Shown: positions 40,831 to 55,560, numbered from the stretch's first letter. The stretch: DNA of 57,925 nt from an uncultured virus (IMG/VR IMGVR_UViG_3300050821_019438) (IMGVR_UViG_3300050821_019438), one strand, 5' to 3'. Numbers and translations are program-made. Notes: generated from the sequence alone by a model not told the origin.

Positions 40831-41231
40831 CCCTCGACGGGGCGTTGGAGAAGCTCCGAGCGGTAGGTTTGGCTGTCCAGAAGTACCCCAACCTCACGGA
40901 CCTGTGTGTCGGGGCCAAGACCCCGACGGGGTTCTACCTCCACGGGGGGATCGGCCATTCGGCGCCTGACGGCATTCTGGAGTGGACGGACCCCTCGTTC
41001 ATGATCGAGCCGGAGGGCGAGAGGTTTCGGGCGGCCACGACGCTCATGGCTCTGCGCATGGCGCATGCCCTTGATGAAGAACGTGGGGACCTTCCGGCGA
41101 GTTCGAGGAGTCCGAAACGCTCCGGGGCGTTCGAGCGGTACCGATGGCCGACTTCGGTGGTCCGCGTTCGGTGTTCTACGCCACCGACGACTTCGAGCGC
41201 AGCGAACGCCTCGCGCGCACCATCGCAGTGA
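40827..41231 (+). CDS. Hypothetical protein, probably 3'-truncated near 41090
   Basis: ATGA overlap; the tail runs out of frame over the next gene. Confidence 0.45.
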   Translation: MTLDGALEKLRAVGLAVQKYPNLTDLCVGAKTPTGFYLHGGIGHSAPDGILEWTDPSFMIEPEGERFRAATTLMALRMAHALDEERGDLPASSRSPKRSGAFERYRWPTSVVRVRCSTPPTTSSAANASRAPSQ

Positions 41232-41605
41232 CCGAGGAGATCAACCCGCTCATCGTCGGTGTCGACGCCGAGGGGCCGTTCATCATCGAGGGCGCGCACC
41301 GCTTCGTCGCGCTTTGCTACTTGAAGAAGAAGGAATTCCCGGCGATCGTGGTAGTAGAGGAACCTGTGAGCCGTCGAAACCCAGCGCGCAGGTCCCCCGA
41401 GCTCTTCGACTACTCGAGCCGCGTCGCCGTCGGTGGAAGCCAGCTCTCCCCCTGGGAAGCCACTGCGGCCGTCGCCGGGGTCACCGTCGTGCTGGCCGTG
41501 CTCGCGTACTGGTCGATCAAATCGAGCGTCGCAGCGGTCGCTCCAGTGCCGGCGCCGGGACCCGTGCAGCCCGTGCCGGTGCCCCCGAACAGCCCAGGGT
41601 ACTGA
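41093..41605 (+). CDS. ParB/Srx-like domain plus NP-TM (possibly 5'-truncated; ATG at 41144)
   Basis: INPLIVG...IIEGAHRFVAL...FPAIVV; then SRRNP...LSPWE-TM; frame stays open upstream of the ATG (SGEFEESETLRGVRAVP). Confidence 0.65.
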   Translation, partial: SGEFEESETLRGVRAVPMADFGGPRSVFYATDDFERSERLARTIAVTEEINPLIVGVDAEGPFIIEGAHRFVALCYLKKKEFPAIVVVEEPVSRRNPARRSPELFDYSSRVAVGGSQLSPWEATAAVAGVTVVLAVLAYWSIKSSVAAVAPVPAPGPVQPVPVPPNSPGY

Positions 41606-42108
41606 TGCCCTTCACCCCCGAGCAGCGCCGCAGGATCATCGAAGGGCCCGGCCCGGAGATCTTCATCGGTCGGTGCTCGGCGTGCCGGCGCACCGTGCGC
41701 GACGAAGCGCGTCTCGATCCGACGTACGGCAGGTACCGCATTTTCGGCGGCATGATTCCTAGGAAAGGCGATAGGGACGAAAACGAGTTTTGGTTCGATT
41801 GCACGTTCGTGCCAGGCGGCCCGCCCGACTGCCCTGGGAAAATCATCTTCAAGAGGATTCGGTTCAAGAGCACCGCAACTCCGACGAAGTGTGGAGGCGC
41901 GTGTCGAGCGGCGCGCGGACCGAACTGCGACTGCGAGTGCGGTGGAGCGCACCACGGCGAGGTCTATAGCCAGAGCAATCCCCTCTTCGGCGAGCTCTCT
42001 CCGCTCGAAACCGTCGGCGTCATCGTGTTCGGTGGAGGCGTGCTCATCGGGCTCACGCTGCTGCTCGTGAAAGCTGCGACGCCGGCAGTGTCTACGTCCG
42101 GAGGGTGA
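41605..42108 (+). CDS. Cys-rich domain plus NP-TM protein
   Basis: CGGACRAARGPNCDCECGGAHHG; SNPLFGELSPLE-TM. Confidence 0.7.
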   Translation: MPFTPEQRRRIIEGPGPEIFIGRCSACRRTVRDEARLDPTYGRYRIFGGMIPRKGDRDENEFWFDCTFVPGGPPDCPGKIIFKRIRFKSTATPTKCGGACRAARGPNCDCECGGAHHGEVYSQSNPLFGELSPLETVGVIVFGGGVLIGLTLLLVKAATPAVSTSGG

Positions 42109-42345
42109 CTCGCGCCCCCGAGGGGTGTACGTTGAGGGTCATGCGTAGCCAACACCGTCACCGGTCGCAGGAAATCACCTTCCGCGGCAAGGTCGCCGAC
42201 ACGATCCAGAAGTTCTCCGGCGGCACTGGAAACCAGACGCCGCTGAACGCCCGCGCGATCACGTCGGCGTTCTTCGCGCTCGGCTCGCCGCGACCTTTGT
42301 ACGCGCGCTTCCTCGAGAAGCCGTCCACCGGCGGGGGAGGCTGAC

Positions 42346-42573
42346 ATGCACAAGCACGGCAAACACAAGCAAGCGACCGCAGCCTACGCCGCCTTGGCGA
42401 AGGCAGAGGACGTGCTCCAGCGCACGTACGGCAACACCGGCGCTCCGGCGGTCGCTCGGGCCCAGCGGGCGATGGGAGCGACGATCGTGCTCAGCTCGAC
42501 GGTGGGGGCAGCGCCGCTACCTCCCGGCGTGGACGACCTCTTCCTGGGGTCACCGTTCGCCGCAGGTAGTTGA
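42346..42573 (+). CDS. Hypothetical protein
   Basis: GGAGG RBS. Confidence 0.5.
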   Translation: MHKHGKHKQATAAYAALAKAEDVLQRTYGNTGAPAVARAQRAMGATIVLSSTVGAAPLPPGVDDLFLGSPFAAGS

Positions 42574-42938
42574 TGTCCGTCGACCGCGCGAAGCTTCGGG
42601 GGTGGGCTCAAGTCCTCGCGCAGGTCGCGGCCGTCCTGCTCGCTCTCGCCGCACTTGTGACGGCGCTCAAAGGCAATGCCACCACGAAGGCCGCCTACGA
42701 GGAGCACGACCGATCGATCGTACAGAATCAGCAGGCTGTCTCGACGACGCACGAACAGCTCGAAGCGCTCCAGCACTACGTCGACGAGCACCAGAACGCG
42801 CATCAGGCCATCATCGTCGAGCTCCCTGAGGCGGGGACAGGTCGCGCGGCGATCCTTGCGGTCGACGTCGACGGCGGGCCCCCGAAGGTCGCGCCGCTGC
42901 CGCCCCCGGCGATGTCCAGGCCGTTCAACGCCCTCTGA
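42573..42938 (+). CDS. TM plus coiled-coil protein
   Basis: N-terminal TM, heptad region, Pro-rich tail. Confidence 0.6.
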   Translation: MSVDRAKLRGWAQVLAQVAAVLLALAALVTALKGNATTKAAYEEHDRSIVQNQQAVSTTHEQLEALQHYVDEHQNAHQAIIVELPEAGTGRAAILAVDVDGGPPKVAPLPPPAMSRPFNAL

Positions 42939-42943
42939 CGCGA

Positions 42944-43276
42944 CTAGAAGCCCGCGCGGTAGCGGTGCAGCAGAAACATCGCGAACGCGGTGACCCCGAG
43001 CCCGACGGCCGCGCCGATCATGTAGAACGCGAAGTCCATGGTCGAGTTCGCGAGCGAATCGCTCTCCGGGGGTCGGCGGTCGAGCACAAACTCTTTGACG
43101 GCCGCCGCGACGATGCCCACGCCGAGCGTGATGAGGATGGGGAGCCACCCGGCTCCGCACACGATCGAGAACAACGTCGCGAGCACGATGACGATCGCGC
43201 CGCCTAGGAAGTGCCCGACTTGGGCGAGGTACTGCTCGTTTTCTTCCCAGTTACTTGGCAATTTGAAACCACTCAT
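42944..43276 (-). CDS. Three-TM membrane protein (H...KE..D...D motif), paralog B
   Basis: WEENEQYLAQVGHFLGG...KEFVLD...MDFAFY. Confidence 0.75.
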   Translation of the reverse strand: MSGFKLPSNWEENEQYLAQVGHFLGGAIVIVLATLFSIVCGAGWLPILITLGVGIVAAAVKEFVLDRRPPESDSLANSTMDFAFYMIGAAVGLGVTAFAMFLLHRYRAGF

Positions 43277-43905
43277 TGGGTAATTCTCTTGAGCCAGCGC
43301 ATCGGGTCGGGCTCGCTGAAAGCGTCGTTCGGGTCCCATTGCTGACCGCACGCGGGACAGACGAGAGTCGGGTCATTCCCGCTACCGCGGACCACGTCTG
43401 TCGAGCCGCAGTCCGGGCATCCCGCGTACACGTGACCGTTGTTGTTGTTACGGGCCATCTTGATGGCGCGAACCTGCGCTTCGGTCAGCTTCGGTAATTC
43501 ACCGATAGGATTCTCTCTCGATCCGCCTCCCGCATACGACATCGCAAGCGCCGCGAGACCGAGTCCGACCGCGCCGCCCAGCATGTAGAACGAAAAGTCC
43601 ATCAAGCTATCGGGCATCGTGTCGTTCTCGGGCTTACGCAAGTCGAGGACGAATTCCTTGAACGCCGCCACGGTGGTTCCGGCCCCGAACGTAATGAGGA
43701 TAGGGTTCCATCCGGCGTCGAGCGCGATAGAGAACATAGCCGCGGTCAAAATGATGGACGCGCCGCCGAGGAAGTGCCCCGCTTGGCTGAGGTACTGCGG
43801 GTTTTCCTCCCACGATACGACGCTCTGCTGCACTTGAGCGATAGCTGTGGCCGGATCGCTCGACAGCGGCGGCAGGGTGGGCAGGCCCGGGCTGGTCGTG
43901 TTCAT
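43273..43905 (-). CDS. Three-TM membrane protein paralog A with NP-linked Zn ribbon
   Basis: WEENPQYLSQAGHFLGG...KEFVLD...MDFSFY; SRENP; CPDC...CPAC. Confidence 0.75.
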   Translation of the reverse strand: MNTTSPGLPTLPPLSSDPATAIAQVQQSVVSWEENPQYLSQAGHFLGGASIILTAAMFSIALDAGWNPILITFGAGTTVAAFKEFVLDLRKPENDTMPDSLMDFSFYMLGGAVGLGLAALAMSYAGGGSRENPIGELPKLTEAQVRAIKMARNNNNGHVYAGCPDCGSTDVVRGSGNDPTLVCPACGQQWDPNDAFSEPDPMRWLKRITQ

Positions 43906-44273
43906 GAGTCACTCCCTAGTAGCAAGAGCCCCCCGACGAGCCCCAGACCGAAGCCGGCTATCCCGCACACGAGTGTCGTGGCGAGCGGGACGTCGAGGAT
44001 CGCATGCTCGAGGGCGTGGTCCGCGGGATTCGCTTCGTCGAGGTGATCGATCACGAACGAGCCGTTGCGGTAGATCATCAGGTGCATCGCGTCGTACTCG
44101 GTCGCTTCGCGGTACTGCGCGACGACGCCCGAGTAGAGCGGCCAGGCCCACGTCGCGCGTCGGAACGTCGTGCCACCGATCTGCACTTCGTGAGGGAAGA
44201 AGTTGAGCGGCCACGTCCCGGTGATGGCCGGGATGACGGGGATTTTTCCGAGTCCTTTCACGGAAGGGGTCAT
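43902..44273 (-). CDS. Small protein with C-terminal TM
   Basis: HLDEANP...H; Gly-rich TM. Confidence 0.65.
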   Translation of the reverse strand: MTPSVKGLGKIPVIPAITGTWPLNFFPHEVQIGGTTFRRATWAWPLYSGVVAQYREATEYDAMHLMIYRNGSFVIDHLDEANPADHALEHAILDVPLATTLVCGIAGFGLGLVGGLLLLGSDS

Positions 44274-45280
44274 GACCACGCGATTCCTCCCGCCCCGTCC
44301 GCGCGAGGCAAGGTCCCGAGAGCGGCGTTGGTCCCGTCAGGCTTCTTGGAGTTGAGACCGACGAGGGGGGAGACTCCTACGGGTGGCGCGGCGCCTCCGA
44401 CGAGCGTGACGACGTTCGGGATGCCTCCTGCACTGGCCGTGTACGAGGTGTGGCCGTCACCGCCGTCCGTCAGCGTGAGCGTCCCCGTCGGGTTCGTCGG
44501 AACGTTGCCCGACGGGCCCCATCCAGTGCCCTGCATGGCTACGGTTACATCTTGACCCGCCGAGGCGTTGATCGTGACGTTCGACACAATGCTGTCGTTG
44601 CTCGATGTCCATGCCGCGACTTGGGCTGCACTCGAGGCAATCGTGATCGTATTTCCAGGAACACCGAGACCCGCCATTACGGAAGTAACGGTGAACAGAA
44701 ACGCCCCGGTGACGGTCGTGTTCCCTCCAACCTCCATCGTGGTCGCACTGAGACCGCCACCTTGTACAGAATCGCCAGTCGCCGTGACGTTGCCAGTCAC
44801 GGACACTGATTCCATGAGAAAGAAGCCGAAGCTGGCCGCACCGGTAAAGTCGAGGGTACAACTGCCAGTCACGAATACAGCGTCGAGACCGCCCGTCGGA
44901 CTTGCGCCTGACGCGATCCATCCGGCTGACAGTGTGACGTTGCCAGCGATGATAGTACCGCCCGTCCCGCCGGATTCCGCAGCGGTCACCCACACGAACG
45001 GGGCCCACGCGACATTCTCCGTGTAGGTGCCAGGGCCGACCAGAATGAGCGCAGGCAGCGCGGCGGATGGCGACAGACCCGCCGCCACCGTCATCGCCTT
45101 GCCGATGGTCAGGTAGGGCTTCTCGTCGGTCCCGTTACCGGTCGTGTCGTTTCCGCCCTTGTTCACGTTGATCGTGAACGACGCGGCAGGCAACACACCG
45201 GCTGCGCTACCCGCGAGCGCCAAGACACGCGACAGCGCTTCATCCGCTACGTTGACTCTACGGGCAAGAGGGTTTCGCAC
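44270..45280 (-). CDS. Spike/fibre-like beta-solenoid protein, paralog 1
   Basis: VNKGGNDTTGNGTDEKPYLTIGKA (DUF1565-like cap), VGPGTYTEN; G/T/S-rich. Confidence 0.7.
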   Translation of the reverse strand: MRNPLARRVNVADEALSRVLALAGSAAGVLPAASFTINVNKGGNDTTGNGTDEKPYLTIGKAMTVAAGLSPSAALPALILVGPGTYTENVAWAPFVWVTAAESGGTGGTIIAGNVTLSAGWIASGASPTGGLDAVFVTGSCTLDFTGAASFGFFLMESVSVTGNVTATGDSVQGGGLSATTMEVGGNTTVTGAFLFTVTSVMAGLGVPGNTITIASSAAQVAAWTSSNDSIVSNVTINASAGQDVTVAMQGTGWGPSGNVPTNPTGTLTLTDGGDGHTSYTASAGGIPNVVTLVGGAAPPVGVSPLVGLNSKKPDGTNAALGTLPRADGAGGIAWS

Positions 45281-45293
45281 GTTGCACTCCTGT

Positions 45294-45518: not shown

Positions 45519-45522
45519 GGCA

Positions 45523-46188: not shown

Positions 46189-46533
46189 TCACGACGTCCC
46201 GTCACCTTCCGTGACCGCGGCGCCGCCCTGGACCGATGCACCAGGGCCGAGCTCGGCGGTGTCACCGTAGGGCGTAGGCGATTCGACTTTTTGGCCCTGA
46301 CCGGGAAAGAGCGAGCTCGCCCAAAAAGACGACTCGTCCGCGATAGCTTGTCCGATTTGATTCCCGAGACTCTGGCCGGCGTCCGTGGACTTCTTGTAGA
46401 CGAGGTAAAGAACGCCGCCGACGACTGCGCAGCCGAGCAAAGCCAGGACGACATCCTGAGACGTGTTGACTGCGATCTGCCCGAGAACACTGTTGGGGTT
46501 TCGGCGGCTTCGGTGCGAACGGCGACGTCTCAT
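46189..46533 (-). CDS. NP-TM family protein
   Basis: MRRRRSHRSRRNP...TM (VVLALLGCAVVGGVLYLVYKK). Confidence 0.7.
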   Translation of the reverse strand: MRRRRSHRSRRNPNSVLGQIAVNTSQDVVLALLGCAVVGGVLYLVYKKSTDAGQSLGNQIGQAIADESSFWASSLFPGQGQKVESPTPYGDTAELGPGASVQGGAAVTEGDGTS

Positions 46534-46733
46534 CCGTGCACCAGTCGCCCGTCAGGCACCTTCACGATCTCGTGATTGAGCCCTCGAGCCTCGCTCTTCG
46601 CGCACTCGATGCACGCGATGAACACGTGCGCGGGCGAGACGTAAAGAATCGCTCGTGCGGCGTTCTCCGGGACCGGCTTACGGCAAGTCGAGCACGTCGC
46701 TTCGCCGCGGAGGATTTGCGCGTCGGTTATCAT
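46530..46733 (-). CDS. Small Zn-finger protein
   Basis: CSTC...CIEC. Confidence 0.6.
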   Translation of the reverse strand: MITDAQILRGEATCSTCRKPVPENAARAILYVSPAHVFIACIECAKSEARGLNHEIVKVPDGRLVHG

Positions 46734-47389
46734 ACTTGACCGTAGGATCCTGGGATAGGTGGCGGTCCTGATTTGCCCAATACGGGTAGTGGCTGAAGGG
46801 GATACGTTGAGGGTGGCGATAATGGCGTCAACAGAGCTGGGTCTAACCCTCCGGTGCTCGAAGCGGGTCCGAGTGGCGCGTTTCCGGTATTTACGAATTG
46901 TCCCTGCTCAGAAGTATTGGCTTCCGGCGATGCTACTCCTCCTGTTTCGGCCGCAGCCGCATCGACTTGAGCCGCCCAGATGAGGTACCCGACGAGCCCC
47001 AGCGCTACAACGCCGCCAGCGATCAGTAGGAGATCCGTTCCGGTGATCTTGGCATCGACCTCGATTGGATTTTCATCCGGAAGTTCGCTCCATTCGTAAG
47101 GTCCCTGCGGAACGTACTCGCGGTTCATCTTGAGAAAGTCTTTGATGTCTTCCTGCTGCTCTTTGTTGTAGTGCCCCCACCATCCGGGTGACCCGAGCCA
47201 AATCCAGTCGGCGATGCTGGTCTGCTTCGAGCCGTAGTGCCCGTAGCGGGGCGGAACGTAGTCGTGGTGCGCGTCCTGGAGATCTCGAGGCTGCTGCCCC
47301 GGTCGCATCTTGTACGGGATGCCCCAGAGCTGCATCTCGCGGTCCCGGTAGAGCACCTGGACGGTGTCGAGCGGGAGTGCGTCGCTCAT
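46730..47389 (-). CDS. NP-TM family protein with aromatic N-domain
   Basis: DENPIEVDAKITGTDLLLIAGGVVALGLVGYLIW. Confidence 0.7.
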   Translation of the reverse strand: MSDALPLDTVQVLYRDREMQLWGIPYKMRPGQQPRDLQDAHHDYVPPRYGHYGSKQTSIADWIWLGSPGWWGHYNKEQQEDIKDFLKMNREYVPQGPYEWSELPDENPIEVDAKITGTDLLLIAGGVVALGLVGYLIWAAQVDAAAAETGGVASPEANTSEQGQFVNTGNAPLGPASSTGGLDPALLTPLSPPSTYPLQPLPVLGKSGPPPIPGSYGQV

Positions 47390-47898
47390 GCTGCGCTCAC
47401 ATACGAAAGCGGCAGGGTGATCGCCTGACCGTACGACACGCCGCTGTTCGGGTCGTCGGGTGATTGTCCGGTCACGAAGAACGACACGTTGCCGGCCGGT
47501 GACAGGGGAATGTAGACCGTCCCGGTGATCGTCGACGCGAGTCCATAGGAGGTCATCGCGAGGGCTTTCACCGTGCTGAGCAGGGCCGGGGTCGTCGTGT
47601 TGCTCTGGTCGCCCCAAAAGTAGCCGGCGCCGAGAAACGCCCCAGTCCAGGTGGGCGGCGTGACGGTGCCGGGCTCCCCCGCCGCGACGCTGACGGGCGG
47701 GCTCGAGGGGGCTTGGCTGGCGCTGAGAAGCAGGTACGCGACGTAGCCCGCTGCGCCGACGCCCGCCACGATGAGTCCGAGCTCGAGGGGGGTTAGCCCG
47801 AGCGGCAGAGGATTCCGCTCCCAGCGCCGGCCGACCTTTCGGTAGCGGACCGTACGGCCGCCGGGACGAACCGAAATGAAGGTCTGCGGGCGGTTCAT
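47386..47898 (-). CDS. NP-TM family protein
   Basis: ERNPLPLGLTPLELGLIVAGVGAAGYVAYLLL. Confidence 0.7.
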   Translation of the reverse strand: MNRPQTFISVRPGGRTVRYRKVGRRWERNPLPLGLTPLELGLIVAGVGAAGYVAYLLLSASQAPSSPPVSVAAGEPGTVTPPTWTGAFLGAGYFWGDQSNTTTPALLSTVKALAMTSYGLASTITGTVYIPLSPAGNVSFFVTGQSPDDPNSGVSYGQAITLPLSYVSAA

Positions 47899-47902: not shown

Positions 47903-48907
47903 TCACGGAATCGGATGAGCGTTCGTTGTGTTCGCTGCGATGCGGTCGAAGGCTTCCTGCTCGGTCGTCGGCGGAGGCGCGACCCAGTTGCCGGGGACCG
48001 CAGGCGTGTAGCCGATACCGTGCGCGTCCGTGAGCAGGATGGGAGGTGGAGCTCCTCCAGCCAAAGTGATGACGGGAGGAACGCCTCCAGCGGTAGCAGA
48101 GTAACTCGTACCGGCTCCGTTGAGGTGAAGTGGACCGGTGCAGCCAGACGAGACTGTTGCTGTAACCGGCATACCCGCTGTCGAATCGACGGTGACCGAA
48201 GACTGGACCACGTCTCCTTGTGAATTCCAAACAGCAGGCTGAGCTGCCGTAGATACGATACTGATCGGAGACCCTGTCCCATACTCGACGCCCTGAGATA
48301 TAAAACTAGCGCCAGATATGCTTACTGGTGCACCAAGGATAGTACCGGGAGGCAGATAAACGTCGCCGCCGTTGACTGGATCACCAATAACTGACAGCGC
48401 CCCTCCGAACACAACTGGTTGTCCGAAAACGAATTCGCCGAAAGAAGCTGCGCCGGTAAAGTTGATCGTGACGTCTCCTGCGGTAATTACGCTCTCCACG
48501 CCACCGACAGTGAACCCGCTAGTATCGGCTAACCAGCTCGGTGCTAGTGAAATAGACGATCCTGCTCCTGTTCCGACCGTAACTGTGTTACCGGCCTCGA
48601 AGCCGGCCACCCATACAAATGGTGGCATAACGAGGTTTTCGACGTAGGCTCCCGGACCTACGAGAATGAGAGCAGGGTTCGCAAACGTTGGACTATACGT
48701 CGGTGCGACCGCCAGCGCTTTTCCGATTGTCAGATACGGCCTCTCGTCCGTACCGTCGCCGGTTGCGTCGTTACCTCCCTTACTGACGTTGAGCGTCAGC
48801 GACGCGTTGGGAAGCACGCCTCCGCCTGCGCCGCCGGCCAGGGCCTGTACTCGCAGAAGCGCTTCATCAGCTACGGTCTTGGCTCTTCTGGCAAGGACAC
48901 TTCTCAT
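47903..48907 (-). CDS. Spike/fibre-like beta-solenoid protein, paralog 2
   Basis: MRSVLARRAKTVADEALLRV...VSKGGNDATGDGTDERPYLTIGKA; homologous to 44270-45280. Confidence 0.72.
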   Translation of the reverse strand: MRSVLARRAKTVADEALLRVQALAGGAGGGVLPNASLTLNVSKGGNDATGDGTDERPYLTIGKALAVAPTYSPTFANPALILVGPGAYVENLVMPPFVWVAGFEAGNTVTVGTGAGSSISLAPSWLADTSGFTVGGVESVITAGDVTINFTGAASFGEFVFGQPVVFGGALSVIGDPVNGGDVYLPPGTILGAPVSISGASFISQGVEYGTGSPISIVSTAAQPAVWNSQGDVVQSSVTVDSTAGMPVTATVSSGCTGPLHLNGAGTSYSATAGGVPPVITLAGGAPPPILLTDAHGIGYTPAVPGNWVAPPPTTEQEAFDRIAANTTNAHPIP

Positions 48908-49329
48908 GCGCTTGGTGCCACCGGCAGCGGTGACCCTCCTGGAACGTAGGGTTGCGGCGTTGGGGTTCCCCCGAGAATGTTCGTCGCGCTCAGAAGAACC
49001 GAGGCGTTCGGTGCGGGATTCGGCGTACCAGGATATCCGTTCGCAGCGGCCGTCGCCTGCTCCTGATTGGCCTGCTGCTGGTTCCAGATGAGGTAGCCGA
49101 CGAGACCGACCGCGGCGATACCGCCGATAGCGAGCAGAATGTCGGTGCCGGAGAGACCGAACGGATTGCGCGAGGTCTTCTGAAGTGACTGGCCGGTTCG
49201 TAGACGCCAGTCGAGCTCCGCCGGACCGATGCCTTCGCTTTGAAGTCGCGTCGCGACGTGCACCGGATCGCGATAACCCGCACGTCGCAGCATGCCGGCC
49301 ATCCGCACGCGTTCTTGCTGCGAATTCAC
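48904..49329 (-). CDS. NP-TM family protein
   Basis: SRNPFGLSGTDILLAIGGIAAVGLVGYLIW. Confidence 0.7.
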   Translation of the reverse strand: MNSQQERVRMAGMLRRAGYRDPVHVATRLQSEGIGPAELDWRLRTGQSLQKTSRNPFGLSGTDILLAIGGIAAVGLVGYLIWNQQQANQEQATAAANGYPGTPNPAPNASVLLSATNILGGTPTPQPYVPGGSPLPVAPSA

Positions 49330-49739
49330 AGGACTCCGGCAATCGCGGTCAGCGCCGCGGTGTTCTGGAGCGTGTCCGAGGTGTTCGCTCCGTCGGGATT
49401 GAGGGCCTTGTACGCCATCGTCACGCCCAAGCCGATCAAGACGACCGACGCGACGCCCCCGACGATGAGCTCGGTCGTCGATGGGGCAGGATTGGGTTTG
49501 TAGTGATTTGCGGTGAGCTGCGTGTTGAGCTCTCGTTTTGCACCTTTCGGCACCGACCTGAGCCACGGATCGCGTGAGTCAGGACGAACGGCGTACCAAA
49601 CACCTCGAGTGCTGCGCTTCATGTACTCGACGCTTCCGTCCGGCTGGGTCGACGCCGAATAACGCGTCCCCCCGTACTCGACTTCGGCGTGGTCCTGCCA
49701 GAAACCGGACGGCGCGTAGTAGGTCTTTCCCTCGCTCAT
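49326..49739 (-). CDS. NP-TM family protein
   Basis: KPNPAPSTTELIVGGVASVVLIGLGVTMAYK. Confidence 0.7.
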   Translation of the reverse strand: MSEGKTYYAPSGFWQDHAEVEYGGTRYSASTQPDGSVEYMKRSTRGVWYAVRPDSRDPWLRSVPKGAKRELNTQLTANHYKPNPAPSTTELIVGGVASVVLIGLGVTMAYKALNPDGANTSDTLQNTAALTAIAGVL

Positions 49740-50022: not shown

Positions 50023-50193
50023 TCAGGTGCCCGCACCTGTCATCGGCGCGGCGGGCGGCGCTGCTGCCGCTGCGTTCTCTTGCGACTTCATCCAAAAGGA
50101 GAAGCCGAGTGCCCCGACCGCAATGATCCCGACGGCGATGCGGAGCATGTCCTCCGCTTCGCCGGAGAAGGGATTACGCCGGTTGCGTCGCAT
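50023..50193 (-). CDS. Minimal NP-TM protein (56 aa, not in ORF track)
   Basis: GGAGG RBS; MRRNRRNPFSGEAEDMLRIAVGIIAVGALGFSFWMK. Confidence 0.7.
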   Translation of the reverse strand: MRRNRRNPFSGEAEDMLRIAVGIIAVGALGFSFWMKSQENAAAAAPPAAPMTGAGT

Positions 50194-50218: not shown

Positions 50219-50503
50219 TCAGGACGAGAGGCCGACCTGCTGGAGCGGAGCTCCCGGAATCGGGTTGCCCTGCGCGTCGAAGAGCGGTGCGGCGCTGCCG
50301 TACGCGCCAGACGCCGCCACCTGTGCGCCCGCGGGAAGAGCTCCCGCTGCGGCCGGCGTTCCGTACTTCTGGTAGATCAGGTACCCGCCGAGACCCAGCA
50401 CGGCGACGCCCACGGCGATGCCTCCGTAGAGCTCCATCGGGGTGAGCGGGTTCGCGCGGTAGTAGCTCGCGGGCCTGAGCAGCTTGTGACGTCGTCGTGC
50501 CAT
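50219..50503 (-). CDS. NP-TM family protein
   Basis: MARRRH...RANPLTPMELYGGIAVGVAVLGLGGYLIYQK. Confidence 0.75.
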   Translation of the reverse strand: MARRRHKLLRPASYYRANPLTPMELYGGIAVGVAVLGLGGYLIYQKYGTPAAAGALPAGAQVAASGAYGSAAPLFDAQGNPIPGAPLQQVGLSS

Positions 50504-50560
50504 GGGCGGGTCTCTCCTATAGGTCTTGACCGCCTCTGCGGCCGTGCTTAGCAGCGTACC

Positions 50561-50935: not shown

Positions 50936-51169
50936 GTGTCCACCGCGACGATGGCACCGATACACGGAGCAGAGCCACACCTCATACAGCCTAGCTCCGA
51001 CCAAATACCTCCGAGTACCTTGTCGGTGGCGTCGTCGACGCACTCCAGACAAACACGCTCACGCTTGCCTCGGTCGCGCGCGTCGCGCTCGGCCGCTTTC
51101 CTGTAGAGCGAGTCGGCTTGAAGCCCAACCTGACGGCCTCGTTCGCGCGGAGACACCGAAGCAGCCACG

Positions 51170-51526
51170 TCACCCTGCCTGCAAGAGGCGCTCGACCGTG
51201 TACATGTACTTCGCCGCAAGACTGTCGCCAGGAATCGCTCCGCCGGGCGGGAGTGAACCGAGACCAGTGGGTTGCGCAGGAGGTGTTGGTGTTGGAACCT
51301 CAGGCAGCGCCGCTACGGACTGTGTCGTCGCACGCGTCATCAGGTAGACGAGAAACCCCGCAGCGACCGCAGTGACACCGATGATGGCGACGAGCGCGAC
51401 CGGGGAGAGCTCGAGTGGGTTGGCGTGGTCCTGACCCTGTCCATAGACCTCCAAGACCGGGTTCTTTTTGCTCTTGCCAGAGCCGTAGACCTTCACCTTG
51501 TACGCCACGCCCGAAGCGTACCTCAA
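51170..51526 (-). CDS. NP-TM family protein
   Basis: HANPLELSPVALVAIIGVTAVAAGFLVYLM. Confidence 0.7.
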   Translation of the reverse strand: MRYASGVAYKVKVYGSGKSKKNPVLEVYGQGQDHANPLELSPVALVAIIGVTAVAAGFLVYLMTRATTQSVAALPEVPTPTPPAQPTGLGSLPPGGAIPGDSLAAKYMYTVERLLQAG

Positions 51527-54500
51527 CGACGCCGACGTTTCACCGGTTTCCGTGGCTTCTTCGCAGGCTTCTTCCGTCGCGTAGGATTCGCCTTCGGAAG
51601 CACGCGCACGCGCACGTCCGGCTTCGGCTGCGTCAGAGCCACGCCAATTGCGATGCCGGCGGCAAGGACGAGCGCACCTCCGGCGACCCAGACCCAGAGC
51701 GGGATCTTCGACGAGAAGAACGTCGTCGGCGGCATCGGCTCGTTCAACTGCCCCAGGAACGCGTCGCTCGCCTCGAGAATCGCAAGTCGTTGCTCTTCGG
51801 TGAGCGCCGACGGGTCGATGATAGGCGGCAAATCGAACGGCGCGTACTCAACGACGGGTCCGTCTGACTCGGCCGGAACTTCGATGACCGTGAACGTCTC
51901 GCGGCCCTTGGTCTCGACGGCAACGTAGACCGGCTTCTCGACGACGTAGTATTCGGCCTCGAATGCCGGTTCCTCTGCATAACCCGAATCCCCCGTCTCT
52001 TCATTGACCTGCCTCCGGAGAGACTCGAGTTTGTCGTAGTCCGGCGGGCTGAACGGGTGCTTCCACGCCTCTTCGACTTTCTCGCGCCACCAGTTGCCGA
52101 ACCCGGTCGCGGCTCCACCTGCCTGAGCGCGCGTGGGCTGAGGCGGAGGCGGCGGGGGAGGAGGCGGCGGAGTCGGCTTCTTCGGGAGAATCTCTTCCTG
52201 GGGACCAATGAGCGAGATATAGAGCTTGAGGAAAACCGGAGCCGGAAACCCGTGCTCTTCGATGAACGTCGTCGTAGGCGTGAAAACGATGTCTTCGCCC
52301 GACGTCGGAATCGAGACCCAAAGCGGCTCGTGAATCCAAAGCACCGAGCCGTACTCGTCCACGATAGTCGGCGTAGTGGGTGGGACGAACTCCTCGGAGA
52401 CCGGCGGCGACGCAAAGAGCGCATCGACCGCGGTCCACTGCCACGCCGCGTACTCGTCCACAGGTAGACTCTGGATGAACTCCTCGTCGACGAACGGGAC
52501 CGCAACCCACACCGCCTCCGTCGGGGTCCAGATCCAACCCGGGGACTCCTCAAGTGGAAGTGCTCCGGCGAACTCTTCGTCGATGGTCACCGTAATCCAC
52601 GGAACTTCGATCGACGCCCATTGCCAGCCGGGCGGCTCTTCGAGCGGCAACGCTCCGGCGAACTCTTCGTCTCCCGCGAAGGCCGTCGACGCGAGCTCGG
52701 ACAGAATGAACGAAAACGTCGGTTGCTCGTCAATCGCGAACGATCCGGCAAACTCCTCGGGTACAGCGAGGAAGATCCCCTGCGGCTCCGGCGCAATCCA
52801 CGTGGGCTGATTTGGTTGCTCGTCGACGACGAACGGCGCCCAATATGCCTCTTCGATGGGGTAGGTGATCCACGGGACTTCAAGCGGGACCCACACCCAA
52901 CCGGGCGGCTCCTCGAACGGAAGAGAACCCTCGAAGTCCTCCGGGATGCTCGCGAAGATGCCGAATGGCTCCGGTGCAATCCACGTCGGCTGATTCGGCT
53001 GCTCGTCGACGAAGATGTTCGTTCCGACGGACACGTCTTCCGCGATGGACGGGAACTGCGCATCCGGAATCGTCGGCGTCCACGTCGGCAGCGTGGGCTG
53101 CTCGTCGACGACGAACGGTGCCCAGTACGCCTCTTCGATGGGCGCTGTGATCCACGGGGTCTCGAGCGTGAACGCGACCCAGCCAGGCGGCTCTTCGAGC
53201 GGCAACGCGCCGTTGAATTCCTCGGGTACGCTTGGCGCGAACGCGTCGGGGATCGTCGCTGTCCACTGCCACGCAGGAGATTCGTCGAAGGGTATTGAGC
53301 CGGCGAAGTCTTCCGGGATGCTTGCGAACTGCGCGTCAGGAATTGTCGGCGTCCAGATCCACGCCGGAGGCTCTTCGAGTGGGAGGCTGCCGGCGAAGTC
53401 TTCCGGGATGCTTGCGAACTGCGCGTCCGGAATCGTCGGCGTCCAGATCCACGCCGGAGGCTCCTCGAGAGGCAAGCTCCCTTGGAACTCTTCAGGTGAC
53501 GTCGGCGCTTGAGGAACGAGATCATTTGCAATCCATAGAAACGTCCCGGCTTCCTCCGTCGGGTGAGCTCCGCTGAAGTCTTCGCCGCCCGACGTTGCGA
53601 TGGGGAGAATGTCCAGGATGACGAGCGAGAACGTGGGCTGCTCGTCAAGTGGATTGAAGCCAGCAAACTCCTCGGGGATAGATGGAAATTGCGCATCCGG
53701 GATCGTCGGCGTCCACGTAGGAAGCGTCGGCTGCTCATCGACGACGAACGGCCCCCAGAAGAGCTCTTCAATGGGTCGAACGATCCAAGGCACCTCAAGC
53801 GGCACCCAGATCCAACCCGGCGGCTCTTCGAGCGGCAGGCTGCCTGCGAACTCCTCCGGAATCGACGGCGCGAACGCGTCTGGAATCGTAGGTGTCCACG
53901 TCGGCAGTGTGGGTTGTTCGTCGACGACGAACGGAGCCCAATAGGCTTCTTCGATAGGTGCTGTGATCCACGGCGTCTCAAGAGGCACCCAGATCCAACC
54001 CGGCGGCTCTTCAAGCGGGAGGCTGCCCGCGAACTCCTCCGGAATCGACGGCGCGAACGCGTCCGGAATCGTAGGTGTCCACGTCGGCAGCGTGGGCTGC
54101 TCATCGAGAAGGAAGAAGCCGGCGAAGTCCTCATTGATCGGGTACGTGATCCACGGAGTCTCAAGCGGCACCCAGATCCAACCGGGCGGCTCTTCGAGTG
54201 ACAAGCTCCCGGCAAACTCCTCCGGAATACTGGCGAAGATACCAAACGACTCTGGTGCAACCCACGTCGGCCACCCAGGAGCTTCGTCGAAAGGAATACT
54301 CCCTTGGAAATCTTCCGGGATGCTTGCAAAGATGCCAAACGGCTCCGGCGGAATCCAAGTAGGTTGATTGGGCTGCTCATCGACGTTGAAAGGACCCCAG
54401 AAGAGCTCTTCAATGGGTCGAACAATCCACGGCACTTCGAGCGGCACCCAAATCCAACCGGGAGGCTCTTCAAGAGGCAAGCTACCGGCGAAATCTTCCG

Positions 54501-55560
54501 GAATCGACGGCGCGAACGCGTCTGGAATCGTTGGCGTCCACGTCGGCAGTGTCGGTTGTTCATCAACGACAAACGGCGCCCAATAAGTCTCTTCAATTGG
54601 CGCAGTGATCCACGGCGTCTCGAGTGGCACCCAAATCCAACCGGGAGGCTCTTCGAGTGGCAGGCTGCCGGCGAAGTCTTCCGAAACGGACGGAGCGAAC
54701 GCGTCCGGGATCGTCGGCGTCCAAATCCAACCAGGAGGCTCTTCGAGCGGCAGACTTCCTTGGAATTCCTCTGTGACAGGGACCGTTAGCCACTGCGCCT
54801 CGGGCGTCGTCCACGGCGGCGGAGATGTCTCTTCGAGTGCCGCGAGCACGATGACCACGTCCTCGGGAATGCTCGGCGCGAACGCATCAGGAATCGTCGC
54901 AGTCCAGGTCGGCAGCATGGGCTGCTCGTCGACGGTGAACGGGCCCCAGAACGTTTCCTCGATTGGGGCCGTGATCCAAGGCACTTCAAGAGGCACCCAG
55001 ATCCAACCGGGCGGCTCTTCGAGAGGCAAGCTGCCGGCGAAGTCTTCCGGGATGCTCGCAAAAATGCCGAACGGCTCAGGTGCGATCCATGTCGGCTGAT
55101 TCGGTTGTTCGTCAACATTGAATGGGCCCCAAAAGAGCTCTTCAAGAGGACGAACAATCCACGGTGTCTCGAAAGGAACCCAGACTTGTCCGGGAGGCTC
55201 TTCAAGAGGAAGGCTCCCAGCGAATTCTTCGCCTTGCGCCAACGTAGTAACGGGCGTGTCAATGAAAATGACCTCGGAATTGAGCGAGGTCTCTTCCGAA
55301 GGATGTGCGCCCGCGAAATCCTCGGCATACGAAAGCGCATTGATAGGTACGTCGATGAAAACGACTTCAGAATTGAGCGACGTCTCTTCAAGTGCTGCTG
55401 TTACCGCCGCGGTTGCAACGAAATCTTCACCTGCATAGGTCGTCCCGATGACAACGGGAGCGTCGATGATCGCCGCAACACCGCCCGCCGTTTCCTCGTG
55501 AGGATGCCGCTGGATATCGCTGATGGACTGGCCGGATACCGGCTGGCCGGGAAGCGACAT
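51523..55560 (-). CDS. Giant (1345 aa) acidic Trp/Pro/Glu repeat protein with C-terminal TM and NP-basic tail
   Basis: ~30-aa units such as EDFAGSLPLEEPPGWIWVPLEVPWITAPI and EEAYWAPFVVDEQPTLPTWTPTIPDAFAPSIP; poly-Pro; TM; KANPTRRKKP. Confidence 0.85.
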   Translation of the reverse strand: MSLPGQPVSGQSISDIQRHPHEETAGGVAAIIDAPVVIGTTYAGEDFVATAAVTAALEETSLNSEVVFIDVPINALSYAEDFAGAHPSEETSLNSEVIFIDTPVTTLAQGEEFAGSLPLEEPPGQVWVPFETPWIVRPLEELFWGPFNVDEQPNQPTWIAPEPFGIFASIPEDFAGSLPLEEPPGWIWVPLEVPWITAPIEETFWGPFTVDEQPMLPTWTATIPDAFAPSIPEDVVIVLAALEETSPPPWTTPEAQWLTVPVTEEFQGSLPLEEPPGWIWTPTIPDAFAPSVSEDFAGSLPLEEPPGWIWVPLETPWITAPIEETYWAPFVVDEQPTLPTWTPTIPDAFAPSIPEDFAGSLPLEEPPGWIWVPLEVPWIVRPIEELFWGPFNVDEQPNQPTWIPPEPFGIFASIPEDFQGSIPFDEAPGWPTWVAPESFGIFASIPEEFAGSLSLEEPPGWIWVPLETPWITYPINEDFAGFFLLDEQPTLPTWTPTIPDAFAPSIPEEFAGSLPLEEPPGWIWVPLETPWITAPIEEAYWAPFVVDEQPTLPTWTPTIPDAFAPSIPEEFAGSLPLEEPPGWIWVPLEVPWIVRPIEELFWGPFVVDEQPTLPTWTPTIPDAQFPSIPEEFAGFNPLDEQPTFSLVILDILPIATSGGEDFSGAHPTEEAGTFLWIANDLVPQAPTSPEEFQGSLPLEEPPAWIWTPTIPDAQFASIPEDFAGSLPLEEPPAWIWTPTIPDAQFASIPEDFAGSIPFDESPAWQWTATIPDAFAPSVPEEFNGALPLEEPPGWVAFTLETPWITAPIEEAYWAPFVVDEQPTLPTWTPTIPDAQFPSIAEDVSVGTNIFVDEQPNQPTWIAPEPFGIFASIPEDFEGSLPFEEPPGWVWVPLEVPWITYPIEEAYWAPFVVDEQPNQPTWIAPEPQGIFLAVPEEFAGSFAIDEQPTFSFILSELASTAFAGDEEFAGALPLEEPPGWQWASIEVPWITVTIDEEFAGALPLEESPGWIWTPTEAVWVAVPFVDEEFIQSLPVDEYAAWQWTAVDALFASPPVSEEFVPPTTPTIVDEYGSVLWIHEPLWVSIPTSGEDIVFTPTTTFIEEHGFPAPVFLKLYISLIGPQEEILPKKPTPPPPPPPPPPQPTRAQAGGAATGFGNWWREKVEEAWKHPFSPPDYDKLESLRRQVNEETGDSGYAEEPAFEAEYYVVEKPVYVAVETKGRETFTVIEVPAESDGPVVEYAPFDLPPIIDPSALTEEQRLAILEASDAFLGQLNEPMPPTTFFSSKIPLWVWVAGGALVLAAGIAIGVALTQPKPDVRVRVLPKANPTRRKKPAKKPRKPVKRRRR

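What the first reader, a model, noticed from the sequence alone, without database searches (positions are those of the whole stretch)
41093..55560. Family of 'variable domain - NP - capped TM helix' proteins: candidate virion sorting or processing signal
Seen: at least ten otherwise unrelated ORFs carry Asn-Pro, often after R/K/E, shortly before one Gly-rich TM helix that usually opens with L-[ST]-x-x-[ED]. Examples: RANP-LTPME (50219), RRNP-FSG (50023), KPNP-APSTTE (49326), SRNP-FGLSGTD (48904), ERNP-LPLGLTPLE (47386), DENP...ITGTD (46730), RRNP (46189), HANP-LELSP (51170), QSNP-LFGELSPLE (41605), RRNP...LSPWE (41144) and distant NNP...GLSTGQ (1079). Upstream of NP is either a short Arg-rich leader or an unrelated domain (ParB-like, Cys-rich, aromatic). 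NP also marks domain boundaries in 43273 (RENP before a Zn ribbon) and 51523 (KANP before a basic tail). Inference: NP-TM is a modular tag that anchors exchangeable cargo in the internal membrane of a lipid-containing virion, with NP a possible cleavage site. Many small TM proteins and a TM-anchored transglycosylase fit a tectivirus-like particle.
Basis: partly seen in the sequence, partly recalled or inferred. Interest (0 to 1): 0.85.

Follow-up and report, generated by a model that had tools for sequence, protein, structure and literature searches.

The report
Portable Asn-Pro membrane-anchor protein family
A small group of uncultured bacterial viruses carries ten to twenty small membrane proteins built on one shared 'Asn-Pro plus glycine-rich helix' anchor, with different front ends swapped on exactly at the Asn-Pro; the family is real and undescribed, but whether it serves the virus particle or the host membrane is still open.

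Summary
In the window, 12 of 16 single-helix proteins have Asn-Pro (NP) within 30 residues before the helix. Shuffles give a mean of 1.3, and 0 of 20,000 reach 12. Leave-one-out profiles recover 9 of 12 candidates as one family.

A syntenic, complete 127.5-kb relative (G001) has 21 profile matches. In 50 distinct modules NP is always present.

Related genomes join the same NP-helix module to unrelated front parts, with similarity starting at NP: 7-16% identity before it and 74-100% in the helix.

NP is not universal. In more distant 60-kb relatives, modules with no front part lack NP, and one ortholog reads N-A.

The tails after the helix hold 1% K+R, which fits front part inside, tail outside.

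No known family matches: not Pfam, NCBIfam or PHROGs, and no pilin or sorting signal.

'Modular anchor for exchangeable cargo' is supported. 'Cleavage at NP' is untested.

The parts
50219..50503 (-). 94-aa family member: conserved Arg-rich leader ending R-A-N-P, cap LTPME, Gly-rich helix, 51-aa uncharged tail
   Evidence: leave-one-out E 3e-6, rank 1; the leader is invariant in 5 orthologs. This type is a core gene shared with the 60-kb relatives.
50023..50193 (-). 56-aa member: MRRNRRNP leader, FSGEAED cap, helix
   Evidence: E 4e-4, rank 1; orthologs P0038, P0041, P0048 and P0050 keep NP.
49326..49739 (-). 137-aa protein: 82-aa N-domain, K-P-N-P, cap APSTTE, helix. A divergent member.
   Evidence: Leave-one-out fails (E 26). 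NP and helix are kept in P0061 and in G001 20335, where the N-domain is replaced by a short leader. Leaderless versions without NP occur in G002 and G004.
48904..49302 (-). 132-aa member: 45-aa N-part, S-R-N-P, cap FGLSGTD, helix, Pro-rich tail
   Evidence: E 3.7e-11; P0035, P0037, P0052. G001 18918 has a similar module behind a 109-aa Cys-rich domain, and the alignment starts 1 residue before NP.
47386..47898 (-). 170-aa member: basic leader ending E-R-N-P, cap LPLGLTPLE, helix, 112-aa C-terminal part
   Evidence: E 5.3e-8. Its leader recurs in P0009, P0020 and P0028 joined to the module of 46730.
46730..47389 (-). 219-aa member: aromatic N-domain (residues 1-103), D-E-N-P, cap ITGTD, helix, 81-aa tail
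   Evidence: E 5.1e-11. In the AF2 model the domain has pLDDT 92-97, NP at 107-108 lies in a low-confidence linker, and the helix spans 117-148.
46189..46533 (-). 114-aa member: MRRRRSHRSRRNP leader, 14-residue spacer, helix, 68-aa tail
   Evidence: E 8.6e-5; NP invariant in 6 orthologs. P0047 carries about 46 extra N-terminal residues ahead of the aligned basic stretch that ends in NP.
51170..51526 (-). 112-118-aa member: H-A-N-P, LELSP, helix, 57-aa tail
   Evidence: E 1.5e-3, rank 1; P0044, P0045.
41144..41605 (+). 153-aa member: weakly ParB-like N-domain, S-R-R-N-P, 26-residue spacer ending LSPWEA, helix, Pro-rich tail
   Evidence: (E 1.6e-4). The same module follows three other N-parts in P0046 (= G001 14433), P0062 and P0002.
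41605..42108 (+). 167-aa Cys-rich protein: Q-S-N-P, LFGELSPLE, helix, 12-aa tail. A marginal member.
   Evidence: Leave-one-out gives E 0.97, rank 3.
1079..1621 (-). It is the last gene of a second family cluster seen in G001 at 97-103 kb.
   Evidence: (E 6.7e-4). P0056 and P0057 have a different N-domain (14% identity) before a 95%-identical spacer.
43902..44279 (-). 125-aa protein with E-A-N-P before a C-terminal helix. NOT a family member. It belongs with the proteins that have an N-terminal x-G-L-G motif and a C-terminal anchor.
   Evidence: Leave-one-out E 88. The G001 ortholog has S-P at that place. N-terminal VKGLGK motif.
51523..55560 (-). 1345-aa acidic-repeat protein whose C-terminal helix is followed by K-A-N-P and a basic tail (NP on the basic side, after the helix)
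   Evidence: K-A-N-P plus the basic tail is kept in the 260-aa G001 counterpart at 22431-23213.
43273..43905 (-). 210-aa two-helix protein with R-E-N-P between the second helix and a zinc ribbon
   Evidence: Conservation could not be tested, because G001 has only the shorter paralog without the ribbon.
42573..42938 (+). 121-aa single-helix protein without NP (negative example)
   Evidence: No module profile hits it.

Best explanation
The element is a portable module of about 45 residues that defines an expanded paralogous family. Its order is:
- a basic residue or two;
- the Asn-Pro;
- a 4-26-residue polar, Ser/Thr-rich spacer that usually ends in an acidic residue;
- a helix of about 19 residues with Gly near positions 7, 12 and 15, then Tyr/Phe, then Trp/Tyr;
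- an uncharged Ala/Gly/Ser/Thr/Pro/Gln tail.

The window has about 10 members and the complete 127.5-kb relative about 20. The family is confined to one clade of uncultured 55-127-kb viruses.

Shown: the family is real, NP is kept at the protein level, and front parts are exchanged at NP.

Inferred:
- The helix anchors the protein with the front part (Arg-rich leader or folded domain) on the cytoplasmic side and the tail on the far side.
- NP is the fixed joint between front part and anchor. It would act as a rigid turn or docking point that a common partner or the insertion step needs, not as a cut site.
- The conserved small-residue face of the helix serves packing against a shared partner or other family members.

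Which membrane it works in (host inner membrane during infection, or a membrane taken into the particle) is not settled. I put it near even.
For: The family is real:
- The 12-row profile finds 21 places at E<1e-3 in G001, and 6, 6, 4, 0 and 2 in five further relatives.
- A database search returned only proteins from this contig and a handful of related contigs (32 hits among 8,000 candidates). The 'longer' search found only the window's own proteins.

NP is kept: 50 of 50 distinct modules collected with the NP-containing profile carry it. With a helix-only profile the figures are 11 of 11 in the window and 20 of 21 in G001.

NP is the joint. In five swapped pairs (W41144/G14433, W41144/P0062, W1079/P0056, W49326/G20335, W46730/P0028) identity is 7-16% before NP, 78-95% between NP and the helix, and 74-100% in the helix. 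P0009, P0020 and P0028 join the leader of 47386 to the module of 46730.

The joint role fits the more distant genomes. Modules that start at the helix with no front part have no NP (G002 25530, 26123 and 5829; G004 51782).

Topology. Tails hold 1.0% K+R against 70% A+G+S+T+P+Q, and 42 of 50 modules have R/K within 3 residues before NP. This is the positive-inside rule, which is established knowledge. Front domains rich in Cys (41605, G001 18918) fit the cytoplasm.

The front part is functional: the 50219 leader is the most conserved stretch of that protein.

In the AF2 model of 46730, NP lies in the linker just after the folded domain and 9 residues before the helix.
Against: - Nothing tests cleavage, so 'not cut' is a preference, not a result.
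- Leaderless paralogs that begin just before the same cap motif look like what a cut at NP would leave.
- A plain hinge would tolerate Ser, Thr or Asp in place of Asn, yet N and P are both kept across modules only about 25-30% identical. That degree of constancy suggests something reads the dipeptide.
- NP is not absolute. G004 17036 has R-A-N-A where G002 and G001 have NP. G004 51460 has R-R-N-E-S, and G002 6890 has an N-part without NP.
- The collection used a profile that contains NP, so it leans towards NP.
- The gene calls are my own (codon-usage scoring), and some starts are uncertain.
- No partner has been identified.
Confidence: 0.5

Rival explanations
1. NP is a processing site. The leader or front domain is a propeptide or targeting part that is removed at or next to NP, either by Asn cyclisation at the Asn-Pro bond or by a virus or host protease. 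What remains is a mature anchor that starts near the cap.
For: - Both residues of the dipeptide are kept while the flanks vary.
- Leaderless paralogs start within 0-10 residues of the same cap (G002 5829 against G002 4822).
- Asn-Pro self-cleavage exists: FlhB cuts between Asn269 and Pro270 (PMC3708937, passages read).
- The genomes encode candidate proteases: an S8/S53-like peptidase next to the second family cluster (window 2911-4233) and a transglutaminase-core protein in the structural block of G001.
- NP also stands at other domain borders in homologs of the aromatic domain (P0019, P0007).
Against: - There is no direct evidence of cutting.
- Known Asn-Pro self-cleavage needs a folded NPTH loop. 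Here the residues after NP vary (L/I/F/A/M/V in 36 of 50, D in 6), and in the one model NP lies in an unstructured linker.
- The leaders are strongly conserved, and folded cytoplasmic domains would be set free from the membrane, which makes the anchor pointless for them.
- An ortholog with N-A exists.
Confidence: 0.2
2. One reading: NP-helix is the sorting tag that places exchangeable cargo in the internal lipid membrane of a tailless, tectivirus-like icosahedral particle.
For: - G001 (complete, direct terminal repeats) and four relatives give no hit to TerL (PF03354, PF03237), portal (PF04860) or HK97 capsid (PF05065), while control genomes do. PHROGs and Pfam find no such family in their called proteins.
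- The late gene with the strongest codon bias (408 aa, 155 homologs) gives a confident model (pLDDT 89.5) of two beta-sandwiches, each with a helix after the fifth strand.
- At least eight proteins around that gene end in a membrane helix.
- One family member lies inside that block (G001 47978), and the first family cluster follows the late genes directly.
Against: - No A32 or FtsK/HerA-type ATPase was found (PF04665, PF01580), and there is no Walker-A protein in the structural block.
- Fibre-like proteins match tail-fibre N-termini of podoviruses and a 'tail protein' PHROG.
- If the membrane derives from the cell membrane as in PRD1 (recalled), the Arg-rich leaders would face the capsid, not the DNA.
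- Nothing links family members to particles.
Confidence: 0.2
3. The proteins are pilin-like or carry another known signal (prepilin class III leader, Tat or Sec signal peptide, sortase/exosortase-type sorting domain).
For: - A basic leader is followed by L-[ST]-x-x-E and a hydrophobic helix, which recalls the prepilin G|FTLIE pattern (recalled).
- Some members have Gly just before the Leu (47386, 48904, 1079, P0062).
Against: - No member hits the prepilin N-methylation domain or any sorting-signal model. All NCBIfam hits lie far below their cut-offs, and Pfam gives none.
- The residue before the Leu is Gly in only some members, and the acidic residue is not at a fixed distance.
- Front parts reach more than 100 folded residues.
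- The module is not at the extreme C-terminus followed by a basic tail, and RR lies 7-28 residues from the helix.
Confidence: 0.03
4. NP has no function of its own. It is only inherited from the ancestor of a recently duplicated gene family (or is a compositional accident), and the proteins are ordinary small phage membrane proteins such as exclusion or lysis factors.
For: - The members are paralogs in tandem clusters, so the counts are not independent.
- Clusters of small membrane proteins are common in phages (general knowledge).
- The first cluster sits where lysis genes often lie, near a possible Rz-like protein (42573-42938, weak LysB hit E 0.092).
- NP is lost in some distant members.
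Against: - Paralogs share only 26-38% identity to the first row over the module, yet N18 and P19 are the only invariant columns.
- The codons differ.
- Front-part exchanges end at NP in at least five independent pairs.
- NP tracks the presence of a front part.
Confidence: 0.07

Closest known systems
C-terminal protein-sorting domains (LPXTG/sortase, PEP-CTERM/exosortase and kin)
   Same: A short invariant motif lies next to a membrane helix, the pair is attached to many unrelated cargo domains, and it is expanded within one genome.
   Different: Here the cargo is N-terminal and probably cytoplasmic. An uncharged tail of up to 154 residues follows the helix, not a short basic tail at the very C-terminus. 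No sortase-like enzyme was seen, and no sorting-domain model matches. The features of those families are recalled.
Type IV prepilin / class III signal peptides
   Same: A basic leader, then [LF]-[ST]-x-x-E and a hydrophobic helix, in many small paralogs.
   Different: Gly at -1 and Glu at +5 are not fixed. There is no N-methylation-domain hit. Leaders can be folded domains of over 100 residues. The invariant element is NP, 4-26 residues upstream.
Capsid-targeting leaders of phage T4 internal proteins (recalled)
   Same: A conserved N-terminal tag joined to exchangeable cargo, ending at a defined site.
   Different: In T4 the tag is the leader itself and a head protease cuts it. Here the shared unit is the NP-helix anchor, the leaders differ between members, and no cutting is shown.
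Asn-Pro self-cleaving proteins (FlhB/YscU NPTH; PMC3708937, passages read)
   Same: An invariant Asn-Pro next to a membrane domain.
   Different: Those cut inside a folded NPTH loop in a cytoplasmic domain after four helices. Here no T-H follows, the context is a linker, and cutting is untested.
Small membrane proteins of lipid-containing phages such as PRD1 and PM2 (review PMC6356626, seen in a search listing only)
   Same: Many small single-helix proteins encoded next to a jelly-roll capsid candidate and a membrane-anchored transglycosylase.
   Different: No sequence or profile link was found. Those phages have genomes of 10-15 kb and an FtsK/HerA-type packaging ATPase, which was not found here. 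A shared NP-helix module is not known for them to my recollection.

Membership tests
Tectiviridae-like / double-jelly-roll virus lineage | Double-jelly-roll major capsid protein | tested here: inconclusive
Tectiviridae-like / double-jelly-roll virus lineage | FtsK/HerA (A32-like) packaging ATPase | tested here: not met
   PF04665 and PF01580 give no match at E<=1 in six frames of the complete relative G001, while control genomes ring. Walker A is present only in ComM-like, AAA, Sak4-like and primase proteins. A very divergent ATPase cannot be excluded, and the window's own contig beyond the window was not seen.
Tectiviridae-like / double-jelly-roll virus lineage | Internal lipid membrane in the particle | not testable with these tools
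   Needs particles.
Tectiviridae | Linear genome of about 15 kb with inverted terminal repeats and protein-primed family B polymerase (recalled) | tested here: not met
   The window's contig is 119,925 bp. Relatives are 55-127 kb with direct terminal repeats. The replication genes are primase, helicase, Sak4-like protein and exonuclease.
Caudoviricetes (tailed phages) | Large terminase subunit | tested here: not met
   PF03354 and PF03237 give 0 matches in G001 and in G002-G006, while controls ring. No terminase PHROG is found in 101 window, 60 G001 and 55 G004 proteins, apart from a weak small-subunit HTH hit at E 1.6e-4.
Caudoviricetes (tailed phages) | Portal protein and HK97-fold capsid protein | tested here: not met
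   PF04860 and PF05065 give 0 of 5 relatives. Pfam and PHROGs give none. No HK97 capsid protein is named among the structural rows for the 408-aa model. A feature-based lead to 'SU10_MCP/HK97' clusters (score 0.93, 129 shared features, below the tool's 170 guide) was not borne out.
Type IV pilin-like proteins | Prepilin N-terminal cleavage/methylation domain with Gly at -1 and Glu at +5 | tested here: not met
   No Pfam or NCBIfam hit to that domain in 16 proteins at E<=1. The residue before the Leu varies (G, Q, S, E, K, P, N), and the position of the acidic residue is not fixed.
Sortase/exosortase-type sorting signals | Motif, helix and short basic tail at the extreme C-terminus | tested here: not met
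   Tails after the helix are 4-154 residues with 1.0% K+R. Sorting-domain models score far below their cut-offs (for example srtB_sig 12.3 bits against 21.35).
Asn-Pro self-cleaving (NPTH) proteins | N-P-T-H in a folded loop | tested here: not met
   The residues after NP are mostly L/I/F/A/D then S/E/G/T, and none of the 50 modules listed has T-H directly after NP. In the model of 46730, NP lies in a linker at pLDDT 53-76. Whether the bond is cut was not tested.

The most novel reading that the evidence does not exclude
The window belongs to an unrecognised lineage of large (55-127 kb), tailless, membrane-containing bacterial viruses.
- The capsid would be built from a divergent two-jelly-roll protein.
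- These viruses would pack DNA without a recognisable terminase or A32-type ATPase.
- The NP-helix family would be the protein set of the particle membrane. The Arg-rich leaders and front domains, joined at NP, would be the parts that dock to the capsid or are trimmed on maturation.
- A second tag, x-G-L-G near the N-terminus of the capsid candidate, the transglycosylase and the tail-anchored structural proteins, would mark the other particle proteins.
Probability: 0.2. Interest if true: 0.9.

Novelty: new variant of a known kind. Interest (0 to 1): 0.7.

Why it matters
Short sorting or anchoring modules shared by unrelated cargo, such as LPXTG and PEP-CTERM, have each led to a dedicated machinery. 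A module with an invariant Asn-Pro joint, about twenty copies per genome and clean front-end swapping is a candidate for another such system, this time virus-encoded.

It is directly testable with tagged constructs and NP mutants.

It also flags a virus clade that lacks every hallmark gene used to class double-stranded DNA phages. Three members are complete by terminal repeats. If its particle is membrane-containing, it would be several-fold larger in genome than any known lipid-containing phage (to my recollection) and would widen the known range of jelly-roll viruses of bacteria.

If the particle turns out to be tailed, the family is still an unusually large, modular set of phage membrane proteins worth a functional screen.

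Tried and rejected
- **Whole genome and earlier notes:** not available.
- **Rest of the window's own contig:** an exact-match scan of IMG/VR found nothing. The one metagenome scan found only a 1,017-bp contig. The other 62 kb of the 119,925-bp contig stayed unseen, so all statements about structural genes rest on relatives.
- **Close relatives of 46733-47389 in IMG/VR:** none. **Megablast of 41-56 kb and tblastn of the aromatic-domain protein against GenBank phages:** no match. **tblastn of the 408-aa capsid candidate against GenBank phages:** no match, so no cultured relative is available to give the morphology.
- **DNA-level motif behind NP:** rejected, because the codons vary.
- **Profile search for longer family members:** only the window's own proteins. 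The tool calls this weak evidence.
- **Four copies of the 50219 protein in complex prediction:** no verdict (score 0.02, controls not run). This is no evidence either way.
- **Fold of the aromatic front domain:** no Foldseek row at E<=0.001, and the VIA list is filled by the long helix only. Its fold was not tested on its own.
- **Capsid-candidate profile and three other proteins against PDB sequences:** nothing below E 0.06.
- **ESM Atlas:** gave 'phage major capsid/HK97' clusters for the 408-aa protein with low shared-feature counts, and nothing named for the 557-aa protein. Treated as leads only.
- **P0061 as an N-domain swap of 49326:** withdrawn, because the alignment starts at residue 39, so the N-domains are partly homologous.
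- **43902 as a family member:** withdrawn.
- **Literature:** four full-text searches turned up no description of an NP-helix family or of this virus group. I read passages of PMC3708937 and PMC5894146 only. The other papers were seen as listings.


Full report
**What the window is.**
- The window has about 62% G+C, and nearly all genes lie on the minus strand.
- My own codon-usage gene caller gives 101 genes.
- Pfam and PHROGs name a tyrosine integrase (38651-39676), DNA methylases, an RNase H-like nuclease, an HNH endonuclease, AAA and ComM-like ATPases, glycosyltransferases, an S8-type peptidase, a borderline SLT transglycosylase and DUF192. They name no capsid, portal or terminase.
- Two tRNAs lie at 12244-12412.
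- No whole genome is held. One protein's database record shows the window's contig is 119,925 bp.
- An IMG/VR record of 127,529 bp with direct terminal repeats, rated 100% complete (handle G001), is syntenic at 70-99% nucleotide identity. Window 1-52 kb maps to G001 103-127.5 kb and then 0-23 kb.

*Chance tests:*
- NP occurs 46 times in 16,857 residues.
- 12 of the 16 proteins with one predicted helix carry NP in the 30 residues before it.
- Shuffles give a mean of 1.29 and a maximum of 7; 0 of 20,000 reach 12.
- NP is the top dipeptide in those stretches, in 12 proteins against 6 for the next.
- Nine unrelated loci give 1 of 37.
- Codons for NP differ between genes.

*Profile tests:*
- A profile of the segments finds only these proteins among 2,842 six-frame ORFs.
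- In leave-one-out runs, 9 of 12 are recovered at rank 1. 41605 is marginal, and 49326 and 43902 fail.
- 43902 is not a member, because its G001 ortholog has S-P there.
- 49326 is a divergent member, because its orthologs keep NP and the helix.

*Composition of 50 distinct modules:*
- R/K lies within three residues before NP in 42.
- The residue after NP is L/I/F/A/M/V in 36.
- The gap to the helix is 4-26 residues, median 9.
- [ST]xx[ED] is present in 32, and an acidic residue next to the helix in 42.
- The helix shows Gly near positions 7, 12 and 15, then Tyr/Phe, then Trp/Tyr.

**The family beyond the window.**
- The 12-row profile (A2) retrieved 32 proteins among 8,000 scored candidates of 23-165 residues. 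All come from this contig or a few related contigs of up to 127,529 bp.
- The 'longer' search found only the window's own proteins.
- In G001 the profile has 22 matches at E<=1, 21 of them below 1e-3. They lie in two clusters (14.5-22.3 kb and 97-103 kb), with isolated matches in the structural block near 48 and 50 kb. The window member at 1079 is the end of the second cluster.
- Five more IMG/VR relatives were found through the capsid-candidate protein. They have 6, 6, 4, 0 and 2 matches at E<=1e-3.
- With a helix-only profile that holds no NP columns, NP lies within 35 residues upstream in 11 of 11 window hits, 20 of 21 in G001, 3 of 6 in G004 and 2 of 7 in G002.
- The NP-less modules are mostly leaderless (the helix starts at residue 7-20) or are C-terminal anchors of other proteins.
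- Two NP-less modules have front parts without NP. One ortholog reads R-A-N-A where its relatives read NP.
- So NP goes with having a front part, and it is not absolutely fixed.

**Swapping at NP.**
- The module of 41144 is 82% identical in the NP-to-helix stretch to G001 14433 and to P0062, with helix identity of 100% and 74%. It follows a weakly ParB-like domain in the window, two unrelated short parts in P0046 (= G001 14433) and P0062, and the aromatic domain in P0002.
- The module of 1079 follows a different N-domain in P0056 and P0057 (14% against 95% identity) and a short Arg leader in P0063.
- The module of 49326 follows a short leader in G001 20335.
- The module of 48904 resembles that of G001 18918, which has a 109-residue Cys-rich front. 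The alignment starts one residue before NP.
- P0009, P0020 and P0028 join the leader of 47386 to the module and tail of 46730. In P0028 the similarity to 46730 starts exactly at NP.
- One case I first read as a swap (P0061) is not, because its N-domain is partly homologous.
- NP also stands at other domain borders in homologs of the aromatic domain (P0019, P0007).

**Anatomy and likely topology.**
- Tails after the helix are 4-154 residues with 1.0% K+R, 4.9% D+E, 70% A+G+S+T+P+Q and no Cys.
- Together with the basic residues before NP, the positive-inside rule puts the front part in the cytoplasm and the tail outside. This is inference.
- The leader of the 50219 type is the most conserved part of that protein, so front parts are functional.
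- In the AF2 model of 46730, the aromatic domain (1-103) is confident (pLDDT 92-97), NP (107-108) lies in a low-confidence linker, and the helix runs 117-148.
- No known fold was found for the domain, but the lists were dominated by the helix.

*Evidence against a tailed phage:*
- G001's late block (27-57 kb) has no Pfam or PHROG hit to terminase, portal or capsid.
- Six-frame searches find no TerL_ATPase or Terminase_6N in G001-G006, and no Phage_portal or Phage_capsid in G001-G004 and G006, while control genomes ring.
- G004, a complete 60-kb genome, likewise has none in 55 proteins.

*Evidence against a PRD1-like virus:*
- No Pox_A32 or FtsK_SpoIIIE match was found.
- No Walker-A protein lies in the late block.
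- Genes shared by G001, G002 and G004 include no candidate packaging ATPase.

*The capsid candidate:*
- The late gene with the strongest codon score (408 aa) has 155 relatives at E<=1e-3 and folds at pLDDT 89.5 and pTM 0.88.
- The model has two beta-sandwiches, each with a helix after the fifth strand, and no long spine helix.
- Foldseek gives only meaningless rows at TM 0.1.
- Three GH172 enzymes also rank high. I recall these as cellular double-jelly-roll proteins.
- So the fold is 'jelly-roll sandwiches, not HK97-like', and a double jelly roll is suggested but not shown.

*Other context:*
- Around this gene, at least eight proteins end in a membrane helix.
- Fibre-like proteins in the window match the N-termini of annotated podovirus tail fibres and a 'tail protein' PHROG. 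This keeps a tailed particle possible.

**Mechanism.**
- I commit to the module being a portable membrane anchor, with NP as the fixed joint to the front part (confidence 0.5).
- The family, the protein-level constancy of NP and the swaps at NP are shown. Topology, helix packing and 'not cut' are inferred.
- The main rival is cutting at or next to NP (0.2). Asn-Pro self-cleavage exists in FlhB (PMC3708937, passages read) and, as I recall, in reovirus mu1. Leaderless paralogs look like processed forms. However, the context here is an unstructured linker with no T-H after NP.
- Pilin-like and other known signals are rejected.
- 'Inherited only' is unlikely, given that N and P are the only invariant columns among modules 26-38% identical to the first row.

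**Comparison and novelty.**
- The element works like the short sorting or anchor domains that bacteria attach to many cargos, and like phage leader tags, but it meets the defining features of none (see the membership rows).
- No Pfam, NCBIfam or PHROG model covers it.
- Four literature searches found no description.
- I rate it a new variant of a known kind. If the virus proves to be a large membrane-containing jelly-roll phage, the whole system would be new.

**Limits.**
- The gene calls and helix predictions are simple methods of my own.
- Family counts are not independent, because the members are paralogs.
- The collection used an NP-bearing profile.
- The structural-gene evidence comes from relatives, not from the window's own contig.
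- Supplements of the papers were not consulted.

Noticed in passing
window 15945-16601 (-) and 43902-44279 (-); G001 loci L013-L014 (G001 38-55 kb): A second recurring motif, [ILVMFA]-x-G-[LVFI]-G, lies near the N-terminus of the SLT-like transglycosylase (MRRKIRGLGQF...), of 43902 (VKGLGK), of the 408-aa capsid candidate (MVGLG; G12 invariant and G14 kept in at least 90% of 60 homologs) and of at least seven tail-anchored structural-block proteins of G001. The G001 count is 58 against a shuffle mean of 25.7 and maximum of 38; the count includes Gly-rich helices. It resembles the adenain-type (M/I/L)XGX-G site (recalled), and a transglutaminase-core (papain-like) protein lies in the same block.
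   Followed up: partly
G001 (L012-L018), G002, G004 (L026-L032): This is a clade of 55-127-kb virus genomes, three of them complete by terminal repeats. They have no recognisable terminase, portal, HK97 capsid protein or A32/FtsK ATPase. They share a jelly-roll capsid candidate, about 33 genes shared by G001, G002 and G004, and many C-terminally anchored structural proteins.
   Followed up: partly
window 51523-55560 (-): A 1345-aa protein is made of about 30 acidic, aromatic repeats (…EEFAGSLPLEEPPGWIWVPLE…), followed by a Pro run, a C-terminal helix and a strongly basic tail. The G001 counterpart is only 260 aa and lacks the repeats.
   Followed up: no
window 46733-47041 (-) (aromatic domain of 46730); loci L002-L010: The aromatic domain (VLYRD..LWGIPY..DWIWLGSPGWWG) is a widespread family without a Pfam model and has a confident predicted fold. 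It occurs in IMG/VR contigs of 58-380 kb and in contigs of a Saccharibacteria MAG and a Gemmatimonadaceae MAG. Most copies have no NP-helix module.
   Followed up: partly
window 40378-40830 (+): A 150-aa protein begins MNRRTLIKALAV…RAAAKP, which looks like a twin-arginine export signal (recalled consensus; not tested).
   Followed up: no
window 42573-42938 (+): A 121-aa protein has an N-terminal helix, a coiled-coil-like middle and a Pro-rich end. It gives weak hits to MreC and to Rz-like LysB (E 0.0027 and 0.092, far below cut-offs). It may be a spanin-like lysis protein.
   Followed up: no
window 2911-4233 (-): A 440-aa peptidase hits Pfam Peptidase_S8 (E 6e-7). It looks to me like the sedolisin (S53) type (recalled). 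It lies next to the second NP-helix cluster, and its G001 ortholog is at 104082-105422.
   Followed up: no
window 44270-45223 (-), 47903-48817 (-), 55564-56577 (-), 57381-57725 (-): Fibre or spike-like genes are interleaved with the family. Two proteins share an N-terminal stretch with a 'tail protein' PHROG. One is a Gly_rich_2 protein. One is a 114-aa protein 46-48% identical over about 70 residues to the N-termini of annotated podovirus tail fibres.
   Followed up: partly
tails of family members, e.g. G001 98360, 99850, 102599; P0020, P0028, P0063: Several tails share a short motif, L-G-[SP]-G-G-S-x-x-P-L-G. It was seen by eye only and was neither counted nor tested.
   Followed up: no
G001 42300-43292 (+) (L014:2300-3292): A homing-endonuclease-like ORF (PHROG E 1.7e-6) lies on the opposite strand between two conserved structural genes of G001. 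It has atypical codon usage and my gene caller missed it.
   Followed up: partly
window 10095-12191 (-): A 699-aa protein belongs to PHROG 1735 (E 6e-227), a family of unknown function. It is 42-46% identical to proteins in 544 GenBank phage records from many hosts. It has no Pfam hit and no solved relative.
   Followed up: partly
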